IMG/VR virus record: IMGVR_UViG_3300029305_004606
Coordinates: 64,001-128,000 of that record
Direction: 5' to 3' (one strand)
From: a virus
Taxonomy: Duplodnaviria; Caudoviricetes
DNA: 64,000 nucleotides
The position numbers and the translations under genes are program-made. Below the pieces are notes generated by a model. It ran no database searches. It saw only the letters and a list, made by a program, of their open reading frames with translations, and was not told where the DNA came from. Positions 5,610 to 64,000 of the stretch are shown in pieces (within the stretch, counting starts at the first letter, position 1; the number at the start of each line of letters is the position of its first letter).

Positions 5610-8282
5610 ATGAAATATTTGCAGGCTACATTTAAGAACTATATAGGTTTTTATAATGGAATGGGTTTGTATGAAGTTAGTATAGATTTCAGAAAATGTA
5701 CTCATAATATCATTCTTATTACTGGTAAGAATGGTTCTGGAAAATCAACATTAATGAATCATCTTAATCCGTTTCCTGATGGTAGCAATTCTTTTATCCC
5801 TGGAAAGACAGCAGAAAAATGTCTTGTATTATTTGATAATGGTGACACATATACAATACAAATTATTTCTCCTGCTGATTTAAAAGGTAGAAAAACTACT
5901 AAAGCTTATATACAAAAGAATGGTGTTGAATTAAATGAAAATGGAAATGTATCATCTTATAAAGATATAGTATTTAACGAATTTGAATTGGATTCTAATT
6001 ATGTTTCTCTTTCTAGATTAAGTAATTCTGATAGAGGATTGGGAGATAAAACACCATCTGAAAGAAAAAGATTTGCTTCTAATATTATAGATAATCTTGA
6101 GATATATAATAATATCTACAAGACTCTTAATAAGAAAAGCTTAATATATAAATCTCATACCAATACTATTCACACTAAGATTCAAAATATTGGCAATGCT
6201 GAGAATTTAAAATCTAGATTGAAGATGCTTCAGGCTAGAGAAGGAGAATTGAATAGAGATATTATGGTTACTAATAATACTATAGTTTCTATAGAAGCTA
6301 AAAATAGTATTGATGAAGATGAAGCTATAAAAATTAAAGCTATCACTGATAAAGAAGCAGAATTATCTGCTCAAGTAGCTATAGTAGAAACTCAAGTTAA
6401 TTCTCATTATCATAGAACTAAAATTAAACCCGAAGATATTAGCAATCAACAAGAGACTGATAAAGCTTTATTAGAATCATATAGATTACAATTATCTCAG
6501 GCTACTGATAAATGGAGAACTGAAAGTCAAAGGTTGAGAGAAACTGATGAAAGTATAGCTTCATTGAGAGCTGAATTAGATTGTAATATAACAGAAACAG
6601 ATATTGTAGATAGATATAATAAATCTCAATCTATTATAGATGAAATTGTTGCAGAATTAAGACAGATGAATATTCCTCTCGATACAGATGTAATGGAGCT
6701 TGAAAGAATAATATCATTCTGTGAAAGATTCTCAGTTGCAATAGACAAATTCAATGATGGTTTAACTCCGAGAGATTTAGAATATATTATTAAAGAATTT
6801 GATTCTATATCTGTGAGAGATATGTTACAGTCTCAGGATATGTTGATCAGTGAAATTGATGCTAATAAACAACAATTAGCAGAAACACAAGGTAAATTAA
6901 AACTTTTAGCTACTCTTGAGGATAGACCAAAAGAATGTAAAATTGATACTTGTCCTTTTATTGCTAATGCTGTTCTGGTAAAGAATGAATTACAAGGAGA
7001 TATTGTAGAAACTTTATCTTTAATTCAGGATACAAATCTTGGATTATCGGAGAAAGTTACAGAAATTCAATCACAGATTGATTATCACAATACAATGTCT
7101 TACAAGAAGCTCGAATTAGATACAATTAGAAGAGAAATTTCGGAAATAAGTTTTATTCTAAAGAAATATTATCCTCAGTTTGTAGAAAATTTTGAAATTA
7201 TGGTTCTTAATATGAATACATTTGGATTCATTCGAGAACATAAAAAAGTTACAGATGTAGCAAATCTATTGAGAATTTTTGCTGCAGAAAAACAACAAAA
7301 TCAGTTGCTGGAATTGGAGTATAGAAATTATAGAGAAAAAGTTCAGTTATTAAATTCCTCTAGAAATATGCTCAATAAATTAGAAAAATCTCAAGCAGAG
7401 TTAATTGAAACTATTGCTAAAGCTAAATCTGATATGGATAGCTATTCTTCTACAGTTATAAGCCTTGAAACTAAGGTTAATAACGAAACAGAATATCTTG
7501 CAGTTTATCTAAGGTACGAAAAATTGTTAGAAGAATATATTGTTGTAAAAGATCAGGTTGAAGAATTTAAAAAGAAATCTTCAAAAGCTTTGGAAGCGTT
7601 ATCTTCTATAACTGCATTGAGAGACAAAATTAATGTTTTATCTGCAGAATTAGAACCTCTGATGAGGGAAATCAATACTATCTCGGGTCAGCTTACTTTG
7701 TTAGATTCATATTACGAAGAATATGCTAAGTATAAACAGAGTTACGATATGATAGAAACACTCAAAAAATACTGTTCCCCTACTTCCGGTGGTATTCAAA
7801 CATTATTCATGCAACTTTATATGAGCAAGACAAAGGATATTGCTAATAGTATTCTTTCAATGTTGTTTAATGGCTCATATAGACTTGAAGATTTTATTAT
7901 CAATGAGAATGAATTTAGAATACCATTTATTGGTGAAGGATTACCTGTAGATGATATTAGTTCTGGATCTGGTGCTCAGATTGCTATGATGGGGATGATT
8001 ATCAATCTGGTATTATTACATCAGGCATCTACTAGATTTAATATTGCTCAATTAGATGAAGTTACAGCAGCTTTAGATTCTTACAATAATTCACTCTTTA
8101 CAAATATCATGTTTTATTGTATGCAGATCTTAAATATAGAACAGTTATTCTTAATTTCTCATTCTACAGAAACTGATAATTCTTATGCTGATATTATTAA
8201 GCTTAAGGGATATGAAAACTACGAGTCAAGTATTCAATCAGGTAATGTAATTTGGGATTTTGACGAAATAATAAAGCAGTAA
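5610..8282 (+). CDS. SbcC/Rad50-like SMC ATPase
   Basis: Walker A GKNGSGKS, long coiled coils, central CKIDTCPF hook, signature-like SSGSGAQ, Walker B LDE, ISH loop. Confidence 0.9.
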   Translation: MKYLQATFKNYIGFYNGMGLYEVSIDFRKCTHNIILITGKNGSGKSTLMNHLNPFPDGSNSFIPGKTAEKCLVLFDNGDTYTIQIISPADLKGRKTTKAYIQKNGVELNENGNVSSYKDIVFNEFELDSNYVSLSRLSNSDRGLGDKTPSERKRFASNIIDNLEIYNNIYKTLNKKSLIYKSHTNTIHTKIQNIGNAENLKSRLKMLQAREGELNRDIMVTNNTIVSIEAKNSIDEDEAIKIKAITDKEAELSAQVAIVETQVNSHYHRTKIKPEDISNQQETDKALLESYRLQLSQATDKWRTESQRLRETDESIASLRAELDCNITETDIVDRYNKSQSIIDEIVAELRQMNIPLDTDVMELERIISFCERFSVAIDKFNDGLTPRDLEYIIKEFDSISVRDMLQSQDMLISEIDANKQQLAETQGKLKLLATLEDRPKECKIDTCPFIANAVLVKNELQGDIVETLSLIQDTNLGLSEKVTEIQSQIDYHNTMSYKKLELDTIRREISEISFILKKYYPQFVENFEIMVLNMNTFGFIREHKKVTDVANLLRIFAAEKQQNQLLELEYRNYREKVQLLNSSRNMLNKLEKSQAELIETIAKAKSDMDSYSSTVISLETKVNNETEYLAVYLRYEKLLEEYIVVKDQVEEFKKKSSKALEALSSITALRDKINVLSAELEPLMREINTISGQLTLLDSYYEEYAKYKQSYDMIETLKKYCSPTSGGIQTLFMQLYMSKTKDIANSILSMLFNGSYRLEDFIINENEFRIPFIGEGLPVDDISSGSGAQIAMMGMIINLVLLHQASTRFNIAQLDEVTAALDSYNNSLFTNIMFYCMQILNIEQLFLISHSTETDNSYADIIKLKGYENYESSIQSGNVIWDFDEIIKQ

Positions 8283-48093: not shown

Positions 48094-48120
48094 AATTCTA
48101 TAAGCCGAGAACATATATGT

Positions 48121-48268
48121 AATGCTATCTGGAACAAGGGCGTGCGGACAGTTGGCAGGTGCGATTATTCTTACATATACTAAGTTCTTGACTTTGGTGT
48201 GAACTATGTAACCCCAAGAAGACCCCTAGAGCTTCGGCGGCTCTAGGGGTCTTCGTTTCTTTTTTTAT
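48121..48268 (+). ncRNA. Candidate small RNA
   Basis: AACA-TATATG-TAAT at 48110-48123, GC-richer body, hairpin 48217-48254 plus T-run; no SD-led ORF. Confidence 0.4.
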
Positions 48269-57472: not shown

Positions 57473-57500
57473 GTTTCAATCTACCTTGATACATAAATAT

Positions 57501-57660
57501 AACGGTGGATAGTACTCATGAAAATTTGTGCTAAGGCTCCCCGGCTGATGTATACAAATTCCATTGACAAAAATTAAATAAAATACCATAATAGTGCAAA
57601 CAGTTTTAGCAGAGTGATTTCCACCGTTGTCACTCTGCTAGAGCTAATATTTTATTTTTT
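57501..57660 (+). ncRNA. Candidate structured small RNA
   Basis: TACA-N6-TAAC at 57490; 5' AACGGTGGA complementary to terminator loop TCCACCGTT; stem 57607-57640. Confidence 0.45.
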
Positions 57661-59137: not shown

Positions 59138-60085
59138 ATGAATGCATATGTAAGTGAATCTGTTCGTGCTATGCTTGAACAGAAACAGATTTCTAATATT
59201 TCTGAATCATTTGGTGATTATGCTTTATCAGAAGATGCTCAGGCTATTAGATCAAGAATCAATGATATTGTTACTAAAGGTTCATGTTCTATTGTTGAAA
59301 TGAATGAAGTGATTACAAGTATCAAAGATTCTAATTTATCAGAATCTACTCAAAGATTTCTGGTTAAGAAGATTTTCAACATCTTTAATGAAGCAGATGA
59401 AGAAGAATTTGTAGAAGAAGGTATTGCTTTACTTGGTAATACTAAATTTGATGGAGATCCGGTTAAAAATGCAGAATATATCGCTCTGCTTAAAGAAATG
59501 GACAAATTTGTTGCTCATCTTGTAGATTTATTAGATGCAGATTTTGATATTGCAGACGATATTCTTAATATTCTTGAAACTTCAGCTAAGAGTGCTAAGA
59601 ATAAAGAGGATATCGATAAATGTATTTCTAATTGTCTTAACAGATTTGATGCTGGAAATAAGAAATATAATCAGGATCTTTATAAGGAATATTATCAGAA
59701 GTTTGTTAAATTTAATAGAATCGGTAAGAGTTTCAATAATAGATACTCTAAGATTACTATGGCTGAAAAGAAAATTATTGATGAGAAATTTGATAAGATT
59801 CTTGGAACACTTTATGGTGATATTATCAGAGATTGGTTTAAGTTCGAAGCTTTCAACAATGATACACCTAAGACAGATAAGCTCAATGCAGCTTGGTTAA
59901 AGCTTAAAGAAATTGACAGAGATAAAACTGTTGAACTTTCTAACAGAATTCTCAATCCTATGTATAACTATCTTGCTAAGAGCTGGTCTCAGACAGTTAA
60001 CAATGTTAATTATATGAGAAAAATCTTAGGTATTGAGCTTGAAGATACTATCAAATGGAAAATTGTTCATAAATTGTATAAGTAG
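59138..60085 (+). CDS. Putative internal virion protein
   Basis: N-terminal region rich in VSES/ISES/LSED/LSES/FNEA/VEEG, like cleaved propeptides. Confidence 0.5.
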   Translation: MNAYVSESVRAMLEQKQISNISESFGDYALSEDAQAIRSRINDIVTKGSCSIVEMNEVITSIKDSNLSESTQRFLVKKIFNIFNEADEEEFVEEGIALLGNTKFDGDPVKNAEYIALLKEMDKFVAHLVDLLDADFDIADDILNILETSAKSAKNKEDIDKCISNCLNRFDAGNKKYNQDLYKEYYQKFVKFNRIGKSFNNRYSKITMAEKKIIDEKFDKILGTLYGDIIRDWFKFEAFNNDTPKTDKLNAAWLKLKEIDRDKTVELSNRILNPMYNYLAKSWSQTVNNVNYMRKILGIELEDTIKWKIVHKLYK

Positions 60086-60095
60086 AATAATAAGT

Positions 60096-60121
60096 CCGGT
60101 GGAGTGATAAACTCCACCGGA
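60096..60121. terminator. Terminator between convergent genes
   Basis: TCCGGTGGAGT...ACTCCACCGGA plus T-run. Confidence 0.75.
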
Positions 60122-60124
60122 TTT

Positions 60125-60946
60125 TTACCGTTTTATTAAACTAGGATCAAACGAAATAGGACAAATTACTTCTTTCTTTTGAACTATTGGTGTAGAATTT
60201 TTATCTTCTATACTAGGAAGAATATAATTATTATTTCTTATCTCATTCATTTGTTCAATCATAGCAGTATTAATACCAGACATATCAGGAAGCATATAGT
60301 TTTGATCAGTGATTTGATAAGTTACTCTATTTTCATCTAATATAGTAGTATTAAGAATTCTACTTTGTTTTTCTTCAGTATACTTTTCTATCCTATCTAA
60401 TATTTCTAATAAACCAGGTTCTATAAAAGGCTCATAATATTGAACAAATACATTATATCTTCCTAATACTTTGTCGGCAGGAATAAATAATCTACTAGCA
60501 TGAGATACTTGATGTACAGTTTCAGATAATGATATAAGTCCAATTATTAATTTATAATGAGCAATCATAACTTCTTTTGCTACCATTTGAACTTCAAGTG
60601 ATTCATTATAATATTTTCTCTTATTTACAACTATTTCAGTTATATCGTGAAGAGAAAAAGGATAATGATGAATTTCAATCTTAATATCAAAAGTTTCAGT
60701 ATTATCTACTCCTTGAATAAAAGCACATTGATTCATTTGCATATAATCTCTTATATATGCTATAAATCTTCTATATTCAAAACTTCTTCTTACAGACTTT
60801 TCTATATCATCTATATAATGCTTATAACTTTTTTCATCTTCTAGACAATAACATTCAAAATCACATACCGGTATTTCTGCATTTGCAATTATAATTTTAT
60901 TTGGTAGATTACTTTCTTGTATTTGTATTCCATCAGGATCAATCAT
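60125..60946 (-). CDS. Hypothetical protein, HNH-like His pattern; paralog of 48719-49492
   Basis: RRSFEYRRF...QCAF...IEIHH...LHDI...LSETVHQ. Confidence 0.7.
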   Translation of the reverse strand: MIDPDGIQIQESNLPNKIIIANAEIPVCDFECYCLEDEKSYKHYIDDIEKSVRRSFEYRRFIAYIRDYMQMNQCAFIQGVDNTETFDIKIEIHHYPFSLHDITEIVVNKRKYYNESLEVQMVAKEVMIAHYKLIIGLISLSETVHQVSHASRLFIPADKVLGRYNVFVQYYEPFIEPGLLEILDRIEKYTEEKQSRILNTTILDENRVTYQITDQNYMLPDMSGINTAMIEQMNEIRNNNYILPSIEDKNSTPIVQKKEVICPISFDPSLIKR

Positions 60947-61187
60947 TATCAGTATCCTCCTTTTTATTTTACATTTAAACTTTTATATAGATATCAATTA
61001 TCGTTTAATTATAATGATATATAATTTATAATATATACAATTATCATATTTTTAATAACTCTCTACGATAAAGTTTTAATTAAGTGTATTTTCAAGATAT
61101 TTTTAACATTATTCAATATAATTATATATTATAATTAAGATATAAAGATGATACTATATTAATATTATACAGAAAGGATATTATAAT

Positions 61188-61724
61188 ATGAATGAAGTTA
61201 TTTTTTCTTCAGAAAACAACGAGTATAAAATTAGACTTACAAAACAAAAGAAATTTTTCACTCAATCTCAATTTGGGCAATATAATTGTACAATAGAATT
61301 CTATAATAGTATAAATCTTCTTGTTTTAAAAATTAATTGTACTGAAAAAGAATTATATTTATGCATACAAAAATTATCAGAACTTGGAACAAATATTATG
61401 GTCGTTGGAGATACAGAAGGAATAGAATTATCTTCAGTTATAGAATTTAATTCTACTGGCGATTTGAATAATTATTTTTGGTATTTATCGACAACAAATA
61501 TTACTACATTCCCTATGGATTATCCAACTGATGATGATATTATGTGCTCTATATGTATATTTTCTAATAAAATGGATCAAAATTCATTAAGAATTTTTCT
61601 TCCTATGACATATTCATTTCTTGATGTTATGATATATAATATATATTTAGTTTTAGAAGATATTCCATATTTAGATGAACTGAATAATCAGGTTATAAAG
61701 GAATTTATAGAGGGGGAGTTATAA
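61188..61724 (+). CDS. Hypothetical protein (tandem paralog 1)
   Basis: Promoter motif at 61122, AAAGGA SD. Confidence 0.7.
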   Translation: MNEVIFSSENNEYKIRLTKQKKFFTQSQFGQYNCTIEFYNSINLLVLKINCTEKELYLCIQKLSELGTNIMVVGDTEGIELSSVIEFNSTGDLNNYFWYLSTTNITTFPMDYPTDDDIMCSICIFSNKMDQNSLRIFLPMTYSFLDVMIYNIYLVLEDIPYLDELNNQVIKEFIEGEL

Positions 61725-61725
61725 T

Positions 61726-62304
61726 ATGAAAGAACCTGTAGTTTTTAGATCTCAGAATCAAGATATTATAATAGAATTTCAAAAAGAAAAGGTTAATAGG
61801 GTATTTTCATTTGCTAAAACTGATGAAGAAGATAGATATTTATATACTATGATTTTTAAGAATATTTTAGGTTCTATTATAAAAGTTATTCAGCTTTCTG
61901 ATTGTGAAATGTATATACTTCTTGATAATATTTATAATTTTATATATACAAATTCTGATAATATGTCTGTTTCTTTATCATGTAAAGATTCTGTTGGAAA
62001 ATCATATATTTTTGTTATAGATACTGATATAATTGAACCAGAAATATTTGCAGAATATAATTCGTATCAATTATCTCATACATTGTCAATTAAAAGAAAA
62101 AATATTTTTAAGATATATGAACATATTTCTGAATCATTAGTTTCTGTATTATCTTTTGAGATATCTAATTCAATTCCAGAATTTGCAAATTGTATATATG
62201 AAATATGTATACAGGGTATGGATATACCTAGAGAACAATTATCTGAAATTACTGCAACTAATATTGGAACTTTATTAAAACCTGATTTTTTACTTGGAAA
62301 ATAA
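61726..62304 (+). CDS. Hypothetical protein (tandem paralog 2)
   Basis: GGGGAG SD; N-terminal similarity to previous gene. Confidence 0.7.
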   Translation: MKEPVVFRSQNQDIIIEFQKEKVNRVFSFAKTDEEDRYLYTMIFKNILGSIIKVIQLSDCEMYILLDNIYNFIYTNSDNMSVSLSCKDSVGKSYIFVIDTDIIEPEIFAEYNSYQLSHTLSIKRKNIFKIYEHISESLVSVLSFEISNSIPEFANCIYEICIQGMDIPREQLSEITATNIGTLLKPDFLLGK

Positions 62305-62321
62305 TAAATTAATACAACCAG

Positions 62322-62668
62322 AACAGTTCAGTAGAATAGAGGGGCGGGGGCAGGGAGAGAGTAGGAATAAAAGGGTCTATTTTATATTAACTATATTTTT
62401 ATAAAAGATAAAGTATTAGTTTAAATTCTATTTAAAATATTAGAATTTTAGGTAAGCAAAAAGTTAAAATTAAAAAACTTTTTGCTTATAAACAATGTGA
62501 TAGAGAATACCCTCTCGGGAGGGGAGTTCCTCCCCTCCCTGGCGGGACGCCACCCCTCCCCTAATATAAGTGCCCGCCATAATAATAGACCCGTACTTTG
62601 TACGAATTTTTTCTTAATATAGTTTATTTTTTGAGATTTGTCCCCTATAGGTTTATAGCCTATAGGGG
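62322..62668 (+). other. GC-rich structured non-coding island (candidate origin or ncRNA locus)
   Basis: Two AACA-N6-TAGA motifs, G-tracts, several perfect hairpins, AT-rich spacer. Confidence 0.5.
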
Positions 62669-62927
62669 TTATTTTTCTTTTATTTCTAAAAATGTAAAAG
62701 TTGAGTTTTTCAATAATATACTATAATTATGAATAGAAGATAGATATCAATTAAAAGTTGGGATTTTATCTAATATTTAATCTATATATTTTGATATATA
62801 AATATTATAGATTTTACTAGAAATATTAGGTAATCGAAAAATGTAAAAGTCAAGAATTTCGGTTATATAATATAATAGTGAATAAAGAGATATAGTTATT
62901 TCTATCAAAAGAAAAGGAGGTGAAAGC

Positions 62928-63044
62928 ATGAAAGGAATAATTATATTATCTGTTGGAATTACAGCAGGATTCTGTCTAGCATGTTATGCATTAGACGAAC
63001 AACCTTCTTATGCTTTTGATAGGTTGGTTGAACATTTTTCCTAA
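62928..63044 (+). CDS. Small hydrophobic protein (38 aa, not in ORF track)
   Basis: AAGGAGG SD; MKGIIILSVGITAGFCLACYAL... Confidence 0.6.
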   Translation: MKGIIILSVGITAGFCLACYALDEQPSYAFDRLVEHFS

Positions 63045-63109
63045 GATCCGAGGAATAAAACGGATCAATTCGTCATCAAAAAATAATTAAGAAAATGGAG
63101 GAAAGAAAA

Positions 63110-63508
63110 ATGATGAATGTATTAGCAGAAGCTGCGTTATCAGCAGGTGTAAAAACAGGTTGTAAAATTGGAGCAAAAGTAGCTTGTTATGTAGGTGGTA
63201 CATTACTTGGTTATGGAGTAAGCCAGGTGGTAATGCCTGAAGTTCGTAAAAGTATGGACAAATACATGACAAAGAAATTTGGAGAAGAAGCATGGAATCA
63301 TGCTCAGGCTACCGGTCAGTTTACTGAAGAGATGCAAGAAGAAATCAATTGGTACAATTGGGAAGCTACTTGTATCAATGGGTTATGTAATGCAGTTGGA
63401 GCAATCGCTTCAGCATTTGCAGATACTGCAGCTTGTAAAGCAATTGATAAGTCAGAATTTTCAGGTACTTGCAATGGTTTTACAATTGGAAACAATTATA
63501 AGATTTAA
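63110..63508 (+). CDS. Ala/Gly-rich hypothetical protein, possibly membrane-associated
   Basis: GGAGG SD; hydrophobic glycine-zipper-like segments. Confidence 0.7.
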   Translation: MMNVLAEAALSAGVKTGCKIGAKVACYVGGTLLGYGVSQVVMPEVRKSMDKYMTKKFGEEAWNHAQATGQFTEEMQEEINWYNWEATCINGLCNAVGAIASAFADTAACKAIDKSEFSGTCNGFTIGNNYKI

Positions 63509-63617
63509 GTTTCCAAATTACAATTTCATATGGTAAATATAGTAACTATTAATTTCCCTTGAGGGAACAAATGATACTCTTATTTAAGAAAAATAATATT
63601 ATAAGGAGGACAAAAAT

Positions 63618-64000
63618 ATGAGTATGAAGAGTGTAGCATTAGCAACTATGGGAGCAACAGCAGGTTTTGTAGCAGGTAATTATTTATATAACCTGGATAA
63701 GGAAGCAAACAAATATAAGGAGGTACCTGTACCTTTTTATACAGTACGCAAAGTAGCTGACGATATCAGCAAAGAAACCAAGAAAATGGTTGACGAGATA
63801 AAGGCTAAATGTTGTAAGAATGCTGAAGAAGTTATTGATGAAGATGTTGTGGAAGAAGTAGAACAGCAGATTCATGAGGTAACAGATGAAGAAGTTGCAG
63901 AAGAACTTAAGAGTTCTGAACAGCCTATTATTGACGCTACTGTTGTAGATGGTAAAGCTGTAGAAGTTGATGGAGAAGGAAATCCTGTATCTATGCAAAC
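63618..64000 (+). CDS. Hypothetical protein, N-terminal hydrophobic helix plus acidic region (3' truncated)
   Basis: AAGGAGG SD; MSMKSVALATMGATAGFVAGNYL...; open to window end. Confidence 0.7.
   Translation, partial: MSMKSVALATMGATAGFVAGNYLYNLDKEANKYKEVPVPFYTVRKVADDISKETKKMVDEIKAKCCKNAEEVIDEDVVEEVEQQIHEVTDEEVAEELKSSEQPIIDATVVDGKAVEVDGEGNPVSMQ

What the first reader, a model, noticed from the sequence alone, without database searches (positions are those of the whole stretch)
62322..62668. GC-rich island with tandem promoters that would make G-rich RNAs: candidate R-loop origin or structured RNA
Seen: AACA-GTTCAG-TAGA (62322) is followed by GAGGGGCGGGGGCAGGGAGAGAG, then about 110 bp of very AT-rich DNA with hairpins (including a 13-bp TAAGCAAAAAGTT/AACTTTTTGCTTA). 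A second AACA-ATGTGA-TAGA (62491) is followed by the hairpin GGGAGGGGAG-TTC-CTCCCCTCCC (62517-62539), GGCGGG/CCCGCC (62541/62573), an alternative partner CCCCTCCCC (62553) and CGTAC-TTT-GTACG plus T-run. GGGTCTATT (62373) is complementary to AATAGACCC (62584). Nothing else in the window is this G/C-skewed. Known: ColE1 RNAII, mitochondrial CSBII and T4 origins use transcript-primed R-loops, the first two with G-tracts. Inference: RNAP-primed origin, possibly processed by the phage RNase H, or a switchable ncRNA.
Basis: partly seen in the sequence, partly recalled or inferred. Interest (0 to 1): 0.72.

Follow-up and report, generated by a model that had tools for sequence, protein, structure and literature searches.

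The report
G-rich-headed late non-coding unit, jumbo phage
Between two early gene clusters of an uncultured 201-kb AR9-like gut/rumen phage lies a single-copy, protein-less unit with a late promoter, a conserved guanine-cluster start and terminators. Related phages keep it at the same spot, but it is unresolved whether it works as a small RNA or as an RNA-primed start site for DNA replication.

Summary
In the 200,990-bp genome, these 260 bp hold the most G-rich 30-mer, the most C-rich 30-mer, the most GC-rich 40-mer, the top G-quadruplex score and the fourth most AT-rich 100-mer.

The first motif fits the AR9 late-promoter consensus, AACA-N6-T(A/G). That motif is depleted genome-wide and enriched in intergenic DNA.

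At least ten related metagenomic phage contigs carry one such unit each, beside the same HNH-like gene (AR9 g242 homologue). Only the promoter and a G-cluster head at about +2 to +29 are conserved. In one subclade a 27-nt head is invariant, while the promoter spacer and the 115-190-nt body cannot be aligned.

The second "tandem" promoter, the GC hairpin block and the long-range pairings are specific to this phage. I found no Rfam, tRNA or tmRNA match, no conserved ORF and no GC-skew inflection.

Verdict: this is a real, conserved, stand-alone late non-coding unit. I favour an RNA whose G-rich 5' head is the working part (about 0.4). An R-loop/G-loop replication primer is about 0.3. No RNA or coverage data could be obtained.

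The scan has noted late-promoter ncRNA units in other AR9-like phages. A look-up by sequence found no look-alike of this one on other DNA.

The parts
62322..62333 (+). P1, an AR9-type late (non-virion RNAP) promoter AACA-GTTCAG-TA. The predicted start is A62333.
   Evidence: The AR9 consensus is AACA-(6N)-T(A/G), with the last base as the start (PMC5312081). The motif is depleted in the genome and enriched in intergenic DNA. It is conserved in relatives.
62339..62375 (+). Purine/G-cluster head (GAGGGGCGGGGGCAGGGAGAGAG...GGG). This is the conserved working part.
   Evidence: It holds the top G-count and the top G4Hunter score of the genome. It is homologous to GGGG(A)CGG(K)GG(Y)(M)GGG in L001, L002, L008, L022 and L072, and to G-run heads in L003, L021, L041, L024 and L005. 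RNAfold with G-quadruplexes allowed places a two-layer G4 here.
62376..62452 (+). Extremely AT-rich spacer.
   Evidence: 62378-62477 is 11% GC, the fourth lowest 100-mer of the genome.
62453..62488 (+). 13-bp A/U hairpin with no U-tail.
   Evidence: It is not conserved in relatives.
62491..62502 (+). P2, a candidate second late promoter AACA-ATGTGA-TA. The predicted start is A62502. It is specific to this phage.
   Evidence: It matches the motif, but no relative has an internal promoter at the same place. It could be a chance match.
62517..62539 (+). Perfect 10-bp G/C hairpin.
   Evidence: Same-strain metagenome contigs stop just before it.
62541..62578 (+). Stem GGCGGG.CGC / GUG.CCCGCC, whose loop displays CCACCCCUCCCCUA.
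   Evidence: The loop has P(unpaired) 0.93 in the fold of the body alone.
62592..62612 (+). Weak intrinsic terminator T1 (5-bp stem plus U6).
62642..62680 (+). Strong intrinsic terminator T2 (12-bp stem plus a U-rich tail). This is the end of the unit.
60125..60946 (-). Synteny anchor: a homologue of AR9 g242 with a weak HNH-like fold and a C-terminal clamp-type peptide. Its function is unknown.
   Evidence: phrog_12252. Relatives were found. Homologues in the phage collection occur only in AR9, PBS1, Staphylococcus S6-like phages, phiR1-37 and LPJP1. Weak HNH structural matches: GVE2 Z 5.3, T5 SciA Z 4.9.

Best explanation
This is a stand-alone, single-copy non-coding gene.

The transcript:
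- The phage's own late (non-virion, AR9-type) RNA polymerase is predicted to read it from P1, starting at A62333.
- Transcription ends at the tandem terminators near 62612 and 62680, which gives an RNA of about 280-345 nt.
- A 110-180-nt form from P2 is possible in this phage only.

The working part is the conserved purine/G-cluster 5' head. It is predicted to be single-stranded or a two- to three-layer G-quadruplex, and several relatives have GGAGG-like words in it.

I infer that the head acts as RNA:
- It could be a docking or decoy site for a C/U-rich partner, such as anti-Shine-Dalgarno-like loops of phage or host small RNAs, or a G-rich-RNA-binding protein.
- The body is a fast-evolving scaffold that supplies stability and the terminator.
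- In this phage, the body additionally displays a CCCCUCCCC loop that the head can mask in the long isoform.

Shown: the unit, its promoter type by motif, its conservation, and which parts are conserved. Inferred: that the RNA rather than the DNA/RNA hybrid is the effector, and what it binds.
For: The unit is real and conserved:
- One copy in the genome. One in each of ten relative loci (a second G-rich stretch lies in L005). All are on the divergent side of the g242-like gene.
- AACA-N6-TA occurs 69 times on the plus strand and 54 on the minus strand, against 102-136 for N5 or N7 spacing. 24 of the 123 sites lie in the 7% of the genome that is intergenic.
- The AR9 late consensus was defined by dRNA-seq (PMC5312081).

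Sequence-specific selection on the head:
- In L001, L002 and L072, the upstream box, AACA and 27 nt (GGGGACGGTGGYCGGGTATAGATAA) are invariant.
- In the same three loci, the promoter's N6 spacer differs at most positions and the body cannot be aligned.
- This is more than R-loop formation alone would demand.

RNA-gene features:
- A strong terminator closes the unit in the window, L001, L002, L003, L008 and L072.
- There is no start codon or conserved ORF.
- The fold z-score is -6.3 on the plus strand and -3.9 on the minus strand.
- Exposed C/U-rich loops occur in the window, L001 and L008.
- The only near-complements of CCCCUCCCC on the plus strand of the whole genome lie inside this same transcript.

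Context: it is a late promoter isolated among early-promoter operons, with no gene to serve. In L001, L002 and L072 a convergent gene follows.
Against: - There is no covariation and no conserved secondary structure. The bodies cannot be aligned and range from 165 to 430 nt.
- The L003 RNA is polypurine and unstructured, z = +0.55.
- Head-to-body pairing is not better than in shuffles: p = 0.05 for the window and 0.08-0.8 for the others.
- Across the wider clade the head keeps its G-runs but changes the bases between them. That fits a structural or compositional constraint (G4, R-loop) better than a fixed base-pairing seed.
- In L021 no terminator is seen in the 420 nt read, and after about 290 nt an ATG follows on the same strand; tRNA genes lie further downstream.
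- No transcript data were available.
Confidence: 0.42

Rival explanations
1. Transcription-primed replication origin (R-loop or G-loop).
- The late RNA polymerase starts at P1.
- The nascent G/purine-rich RNA invades the C-rich template behind the polymerase. G-runs on the displaced strand, or hybrid RNA:DNA quadruplexes, stabilise the structure.
- The adjacent AT-rich stretch melts.
- The RNA, perhaps trimmed by the phage RNase H, primes the T4-like replisome.
For: - The only conserved parts are the promoter (with a conserved box near -30) and a G-cluster on the non-template strand at about +2 to +29. That cluster is the top G4Hunter peak of the genome and of 9 of 10 relative loci.
- The sequence downstream is free to vary. 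The same holds for T4 oriF/oriG: a minimal origin is a factor-dependent promoter plus an A+T-rich unwinding element that heterologous sequence can replace (PMC3016281).
- In this phage the head is followed by the fourth most AT-rich 100-mer of the genome. L021 has about 200 nt of nearly pure A/T. L003, L031 and L075 have polypurine transcripts.
- G-rich non-template DNA forms hybrid G-quadruplexes during transcription and makes the mitochondrial primer at CSB II (PMC3488243, PMC4176368).
- It is a single-copy late promoter that serves no gene.
Against: - Cumulative GC skew has no inflection at 126 kb. Skew simply follows gene orientation.
- AR9 has no G-cluster matching the one pattern I searched for, so this would not be a family-wide origin design.
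- The invariant 27-nt head includes non-G bases (TATAGATAA), which priming does not require.
- Most units end in strong terminators.
- The window's distal block makes C-rich RNA, which disfavours hybrid extension.
- AT-richness after the head is not extreme in most relatives.
- No replication gene lies next to the unit.
Confidence: 0.3
2. No function of its own. The region would be the 3' untranslated tail and terminator/insulator zone between two early operons. It would have collected a stray late-type promoter and lineage-specific GC-rich hairpins (RNA 3'-end stabilisers or selfish GC-cluster insertions, as in AT-rich organelle genomes).
For: - In the window no terminator separates ORF 61726-62304 from the unit, so early transcripts must run into it and stop at T1/T2.
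- The GC hairpin block and P2 are not conserved.
- The bodies turn over rapidly by insertion and deletion.
Against: - Promoter plus head is kept in at least ten diverged phages, and 27 nt are invariant while neighbouring non-functional positions have changed.
- In L001, L002 and L072 the upstream gene has its own terminator before the unit's promoter.
- The AACA-N6-TA motif is selected against elsewhere in the genome.
Confidence: 0.12
3. A DNA site recognised by a phage protein. Candidates are a packaging (pac) site, a site-specific nick, or a site cut or bound by the neighbouring HNH-like protein. Transcription would be incidental.
For: - The head is conserved at the sequence level.
- Synteny with an HNH-fold gene is constant. 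The weak structural matches are to the T5 SciA nicking enzyme and to the GVE2 HNH endonuclease.
- Six of eight same-strain contigs, and three relative contigs, end in or beside the GC/G-rich DNA.
Against: - Contig ends are scattered over 62390-62516, to the left of the perfect GC hairpin. That pattern fits sequencing dropout rather than a fixed DNA end.
- The HNH assignment is weak: Foldseek E = 0.2, Z about 5.
- The distance between the gene and the unit ranges from 0.2 to 3.5 kb.
- The spacing of the head from the start site ranges from +2 to +29.
- There are no repeats or iterons.
Confidence: 0.08

Closest known systems
AR9 (Bacillus jumbo phage) late transcription units, including orphan, antisense and long-leader late transcripts (PMC5312081)
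   Same: - The promoter word is the same: AACA-(6N)-T(A/G), with the last base as the start.
- The phage lineage is the same: multisubunit RNAP, and a g242 homologue found only in AR9/PBS1-type phages.
- AR9 also has a late-promoter motif with no ORF for 490 nt, in the gap after g242.
   Different: - There is no sequence similarity to any AR9 region.
- AR9 has no G-cluster matching the one pattern searched.
- The conserved upstream box TTGTAAAAAAWTAC is not part of the AR9 late consensus.
Phage T4 oriF/oriG (R-loop origins; PMC3016281)
   Same: - A phage-specific promoter with a factor box near -30 is followed by replaceable A+T-rich DNA.
- The downstream sequence is not conserved.
- A T4-like replisome is reported elsewhere in this genome, and an RNase H in this window, by earlier scan notes. 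I did not check either.
   Different: - T4 origins have no G-cluster and use host RNAP with MotA.
- Nothing here shows R-loop formation or DNA synthesis starting at this site.
ColE1 RNA II and the mitochondrial LSP-CSB II primer (PMC3488243, PMC4176368; ColE1 from general knowledge)
   Same: G-runs in the nascent RNA or non-template strand, downstream of a dedicated promoter. The L041 head (G5-AA-G6-TTT-G5) resembles the G-run pattern of CSB II as I recall it.
   Different: - In those systems the G-run lies 100-300 nt from the start and defines the primer's 3' end or the anchoring of the hybrid. Here it lies at +2 to +29.
- There is no homology.
C-rich-seed small RNAs of Firmicutes (RsaE/RoxS type; from general knowledge)
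   Same: The distal part of the window's unit is a roughly 110-nt RNA with GC stems, an unpaired CCCCUCCCC loop and an intrinsic terminator.
   Different: - There is no Rfam match.
- This part is not conserved in relatives.
- The conserved part is G-rich, the opposite polarity.
T7 primary origin (two tandem phage-RNAP promoters followed by an AT-rich region; from general knowledge)
   Same: Phage-RNAP promoters with adjacent AT-rich DNA.
   Different: - The second promoter here lies after the AT-rich stretch and is not conserved.
- The RNAP here is multisubunit.

Membership tests
Any Rfam 15 family (including GOLLD, ROOL, pRNA, 6S, SRP, RsaE, tmRNA) | Covariance-model score at or above the gathering threshold | tested here: not met
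   There were 0 matches in the 64-kb window and only tRNAs in 11 relative loci. Permissive searches of 62200-62950 and of the L001 unit gave only sub-threshold noise.
AR9-type late (nvRNAP) promoter | AACA, six bases, T, then A or G as the start site | tested here: met
   P1 at 62322-62333 and P2 at 62491-62502 both match. The consensus comes from PMC5312081. The motif is depleted genome-wide and 2.7-fold enriched in intergenic DNA. P1 is conserved in relatives.
AR9-type late (nvRNAP) promoter | Transcription start mapped at the motif, with late timing | not testable with these tools
Transcript-primed (R-loop) origin, T4 oriF/oriG type | Phage-specific promoter followed by an A+T-rich unwinding element | tested here: inconclusive
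   This is met in the window, where 11% GC is the fourth lowest 100-mer, and in L021. The spacers in L001, L002, L008 and L072 are only ordinarily AT-rich, at 13-23% GC.
Transcript-primed (R-loop) origin, T4 oriF/oriG type | Persistent RNA-DNA hybrid and DNA synthesis starting there | not testable with these tools
   This needs DRIP/S9.6, marker-frequency or plasmid origin assays. GC skew gives no signal.
G-quadruplex-forming element (CSB II-like) | Four G-runs of three or more with short loops, or a G4Hunter score of 1.5 or more | tested here: met
   - G4Hunter is 2.0 at 62341, the genome maximum.
- Relatives score 1.4-2.9, the locus maximum in 9 of 10.
- L021 has a canonical G3-C-G6-C-G6-C-G4.
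- The window has G4-C-G5-CA-G3 plus a fourth run after 17 nt, and RNAfold with G4s allowed predicts a two-layer quadruplex.
- Actual folding is untested.
Trans-acting sRNA with a conserved 5' seed | 5' end more conserved than the body, with a Rho-independent terminator | tested here: met
   One search shows the invariant head against an unalignable body. Terminators are shown.
Trans-acting sRNA with a conserved 5' seed | Identifiable conserved target complementary to the seed | tested here: not met
   On the transcript's own strand, the only strong partners of the G-runs and C-runs lie inside the same unit. Head-to-body pairing is not significant. Host targets could not be searched.
Structured ncRNA (conserved fold) | Compensatory base changes that keep helices across relatives | tested here: not met
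   The bodies cannot be aligned. L003 is unstructured. Same-strain contigs are 99.7-100% identical, so they carry no information.
tRNA / tmRNA | ARAGORN detection of an acceptor arm, a T-arm and a tag | tested here: not met
   None at the unit in the window or in nine relative loci.

The most novel reading that the evidence does not exclude
The unit is the lytic replication origin of this clade of AR9-like (probably deoxyuridine-DNA) jumbo phages. The phage's own multisubunit late RNA polymerase would make a G/purine-rich transcript that locks into an R-loop/G-loop at the start of one of the most meltable stretches of the genome, and that RNA would prime the T4-like replisome. As far as I know, and by one literature search, no origin has been defined for any RNAP-encoding jumbo phage, so this would be the first. 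It would also be a bacterial-virus counterpart of mitochondrial CSB II priming.
Probability: 0.28. Interest if true: 0.8.

Novelty: new variant of a known kind. Interest (0 to 1): 0.52.

Why it matters
As far as I know, replication origins of jumbo phages that carry their own RNA polymerases have not been mapped, and their non-coding RNAs are almost unstudied.

This unit is a compact and unusually clean object. It has a defined promoter, a 20-30-nt conserved G-cluster head, replaceable DNA behind it and a terminator. It can be synthesised and tested directly for G-quadruplex formation, R-loop formation with an AR9-type polymerase, origin activity or RNA binding partners.

Either outcome would be new. 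One is a G-headed late regulatory RNA family. The other is an R-loop origin fired by a phage multisubunit polymerase.

There is also a practical point. The GC hairpin breaks most metagenome assemblies of this phage, which matters for recovering complete genomes of AT-rich phages.

Tried and rejected
- Phage-collection BLAST of 60000-64000: no match.
- Exact search for the GC hairpin in viral contigs: none.
- Relatives through ORF 61726-62304 and ORF 63095-63508: none in viral contigs.
- Pattern GGGGACGGKGGYCGGG in viral contigs: swamped by high-GC chance hits; the only low-GC hit was L171 (the L002 record).
- Promoter-plus-head pattern in viral and genome collections: only known loci plus chance hits, including an unrelated Chitinophagaceae repeat.
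- Whole-record searches of metagenome loci: the records are not held.
- tmRNA idea (GGGGACG start, CCACCGU near the 3' end of L001): ARAGORN was negative.
- SRP-like idea (CCGGAAGG in L001): no Rfam signal.
- Idea that the divergent ORFs are RNase H, as in AR9 g241: no similarity. The two ORFs are weak paralogues of each other.
- Five-codon mini-ORF (GTG-GYC-GGG-TAT-AGA-TAA behind an AGGAGG) in L001, L002 and L072: absent in L008 and in the window, so it was not pursued.
- A conserved closing helix between the head and the 3' region: not significant.
- Iterons or repeats: only the duplicated early promoters downstream.
- Neighbour protein: nothing by PDB sequence search, no Pfam family and only a far sub-threshold NCBIfam match; only weak HNH-like structural matches.
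- Literature search for jumbo-phage R-loop origins: nothing relevant.

Full report
**What the window is**

The window is bases 64001-128000 of a single 200,990-bp contig with 31% GC. The contig encodes a phage-type multisubunit RNA polymerase beta subunit (phrog_2962) and a virion structural protein. The gene next to the finding, 60125-60946 on the minus strand, has homologues in the phage collection only in AR9, PBS1, Staphylococcus S6-like phages, Yersinia phiR1-37 and Listeria LPJP1. By my knowledge these include the known deoxyuridine-DNA jumbo phages. In AR9 the homologue is g242. The genome is therefore an uncultured AR9-like jumbo phage. Its relatives come from rumen and gut metagenomes.

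Every motif is at the stated coordinate. The compositional claim holds for the whole genome, not only the window:
- 62505-62578 is the only 40-mer with GC of 67.5% or more; its peak is 78%.
- The locus holds the most G-rich 30-mer (18 G) and the most C-rich 30-mer (19 C).
- It holds both G4Hunter extremes, +2.0 and -1.64.
- 62378-62477, at 11% GC, is the fourth most AT-rich 100-mer.
- The RNA fold of 62500-62612 is -44.5 kcal/mol. Its z-score is -6.3 on the plus strand and -3.9 on the minus strand.

**The promoters**

In AR9, dRNA-seq defined the late promoter as AACA-(6N)-T(A/G), with the last base as the start. The early promoter is an extended AT-rich word (PMC5312081).

In this genome AACA-N6-TA is depleted. 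It occurs 69 and 54 times on the two strands, against 102-136 for N5 or N7 spacing and about 146 expected from base composition. Of the 123 copies, 24 lie in the 7% of the genome that is intergenic. This is the signature of a real signal.

P1 predicts a start at A62333 and P2 a start at A62502.

The early promoter of this phage is TTA-TATAWTATA-AWWATGA. Its core word lies in 32 intergenic segments (49 occurrences on the two strands genome-wide). One clear copy (about 62866) and a weaker duplicate (about 62715) lie just downstream of the unit and drive the next genes, and another drives the upstream ORFs. The unit is therefore a late promoter isolated among early operons, with no gene of its own. 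No ORF with a plausible start exists.

**Comparative evidence**

I used the g242-like protein as the anchor and retrieved 83 loci. Findings on the unit:
- A profile of the promoter plus head finds exactly one copy in the genome. It finds one each in L001(=L012), L002(=L014), L003(=L023), L005, L008, L021, L022, L024, L041 and L072.
- Every copy is on the divergent side of the anchor gene, 0.2-3.5 kb away.
- Among L001, L002 and L072, the preceding terminator, an upstream box (TTTGTAAAAAA), AACA and a 27-nt head (GGGGACGGTGGYCGGGTATAGATAA) are invariant.
- In the same three loci, the promoter's six-base spacer differs at most positions and the 115-190-nt body cannot be aligned. The closing terminator and the convergent gene are again conserved.
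- The window's head, GGGGCGGGGGCAGGG, matches that consensus at 13 of 16 positions.
- More distant heads keep their G-runs with different interrupting bases: L021 has G3-C-G6-C-G6-C-G4, L041 has G5-AA-G6-TTT-G5, and L003 has GGCG7TGGG.
- The head is the strongest G4Hunter peak in 9 of 10 relative loci, always on the non-template strand.

**What is not conserved**

- P2 has no counterpart in relatives.
- The GC hairpin block and everything else in the body find no match in any locus.
- The long-range pairings are not supported. The best duplex between head and body is no better than with dinucleotide shuffles: p = 0.05 for the window and 0.08-0.8 for six relatives.
- L003's transcript is about 110 nt of polypurine with no fold, z = +0.55.
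- Exposed C/U-rich loops recur in the window (P unpaired 0.93), L001 and L008, but not in the other four units tested (L002, L003, L005b, L072).
- No Rfam family, tRNA or tmRNA matches the unit.

**Origin evidence**

- Cumulative GC skew follows gene orientation and has no inflection near 126 kb. This is weak negative evidence, because skew here simply tracks gene orientation.
- AR9 has no G-cluster matching the one pattern I searched for.
- The two ORFs between the anchor gene and the unit are not RNase H.

In favour of an origin, the conserved parts are what an R-loop initiation site needs: a promoter and a G-cluster directly after the start. The replaceable downstream DNA mirrors T4 oriF/oriG, where a factor-dependent promoter plus any unwinding element is sufficient (PMC3016281). 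Transcription of G-rich non-template DNA forms hybrid quadruplexes that make the mitochondrial primer (PMC3488243, PMC4176368).

**Assembly behaviour**

The same strain was found in eight further contigs, 99.7-100% identical. Six of them stop at 62390, 62415 (twice), 62452, 62480 (then chimeric) or 62516, which is the base before the perfect GC hairpin. Relative contigs L024 and L041 end inside the G-run, and L007 ends in GC-rich DNA. The scatter of end points fits read dropout at an extreme hairpin in an AT-rich genome better than a fixed DNA end.

**Weighing the readings**

I am about 0.8 confident that this is a conserved, stand-alone, late non-coding unit whose functional core is the promoter plus the G-cluster head. 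The mechanism is open.

Arguments for the RNA as effector:
- The units end in terminators.
- The 27-nt head is conserved in sequence, including non-G bases.
- C/U-rich loops are exposed in some units.
- This genome has several other sRNA-like late units (earlier scan notes).

Arguments for an R-loop or G-loop primer:
- In the wider clade, conservation is of G-runs rather than of exact sequence.
- The cluster sits right after the start site.
- It is followed here by an extreme AT-rich stretch.
- The body is free to vary.

I put the RNA reading at about 0.4, the origin reading at about 0.3, passive DNA at about 0.1 and a protein-recognised DNA site at just under 0.1.

**Earlier scan notes**

A second first-stage note on the same stretch gave the same two readings. 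The scan has also reported late-promoter ncRNA units in other AR9-like phages. A look-up by sequence found no look-alike of this unit on other DNA. I did not treat any of these notes as evidence.

Noticed in passing
whole genome (G000:C1 1-127 and 200864-200990): The contig's first and last 127 bases are perfect reverse complements of each other. I take this to be an assembly-graph end at an inverted repeat (perhaps assembler k = 127), so the contig may not be a complete or correctly closed genome.
   Followed up: partly
genome-wide; in the window e.g. 61120-61149, 62712-62741, 62860-62884: The early promoter consensus is TTA-TATAWTATA-AWWATGA; its core word lies in 32 intergenic segments. A subset carries an upstream box (A/T)TGTAAAA(G/A)T 17 nt before the core. 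That box resembles the TTGTAAAAAAWTAC box in front of the G-headed unit in relatives.
   Followed up: partly
window 48110-48266 and 57490-57660: Two further ORF-free units have late-type promoters and strong terminators. The first has the second most G-rich 30-mer of the genome (14 G). Neither has a detectable homologue in the 83 relative loci.
   Followed up: partly
window 60125-60946 (-): This is a homologue of AR9 g242. In the phage collection it is found only in AR9, PBS1, S6-like phages, phiR1-37 and LPJP1. It has an invariant HH...H...H...H pattern and weak HNH-like structural matches (GVE2 HNH Z 5.3; T5 SciA nicking enzyme Z 4.9). Its function is unknown.
   Followed up: partly
L210 (AR9 KU878088) 6651-7151: The 560-bp gap after AR9 g242 starts with a late-promoter motif (AACA-ATTTAA-TA) and has no ORF for 490 nt. 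That length matches the longest 5' UTR (491 nt) reported in PMC5312081. It may be a non-coding RNA or a regulatory leader.
   Followed up: no
L065 2088-2151 (-), L077 1985-2084 (-), also L069: More distant relatives carry, on the same side of the anchor gene, a short unit of about 65-95 nt. It has a late promoter, makes a C-rich unstructured RNA (CCACCCACCAACCACCACC) and ends in a GC terminator.
   Followed up: no
L203-L209 (same strain), window 62390-62516: Six of eight independent metagenome contigs of this strain stop just left of the perfect 10-bp GC hairpin. L207 continues into unrelated sequence (a chimera). The island is an assembly breaker.
   Followed up: yes
L031 1-1350: A 170-kb contig with a relative of the anchor gene runs into higher-GC DNA that reads like bacterial coding sequence. 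My by-eye guess, not searched, is an AraC-type regulator and a sugar kinase, about 2 kb beyond a purine-rich stretch. This is either a chimeric assembly or phage-host joined DNA.
   Followed up: no
L233, L243, L277, L304, L311, L324, L329, L336 (Chitinophagaceae and other MAG contigs): The word AACACCCCTTTAGGGGACGGGGG recurs on many contigs of Chitinophagaceae genomes, which suggests a dispersed hairpin repeat. It is unrelated to the phage unit and was picked up by chance through the pattern scan.
   Followed up: no
L021 1509-2220 (-): In this relative, three tRNA genes (Pro, Thr, Gln) lie about 1.8-2.5 kb downstream of the G-headed promoter on the same strand. Between them are about 290 nt of mostly A/T-rich DNA and then what looks like an ORF.
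   Followed up: no
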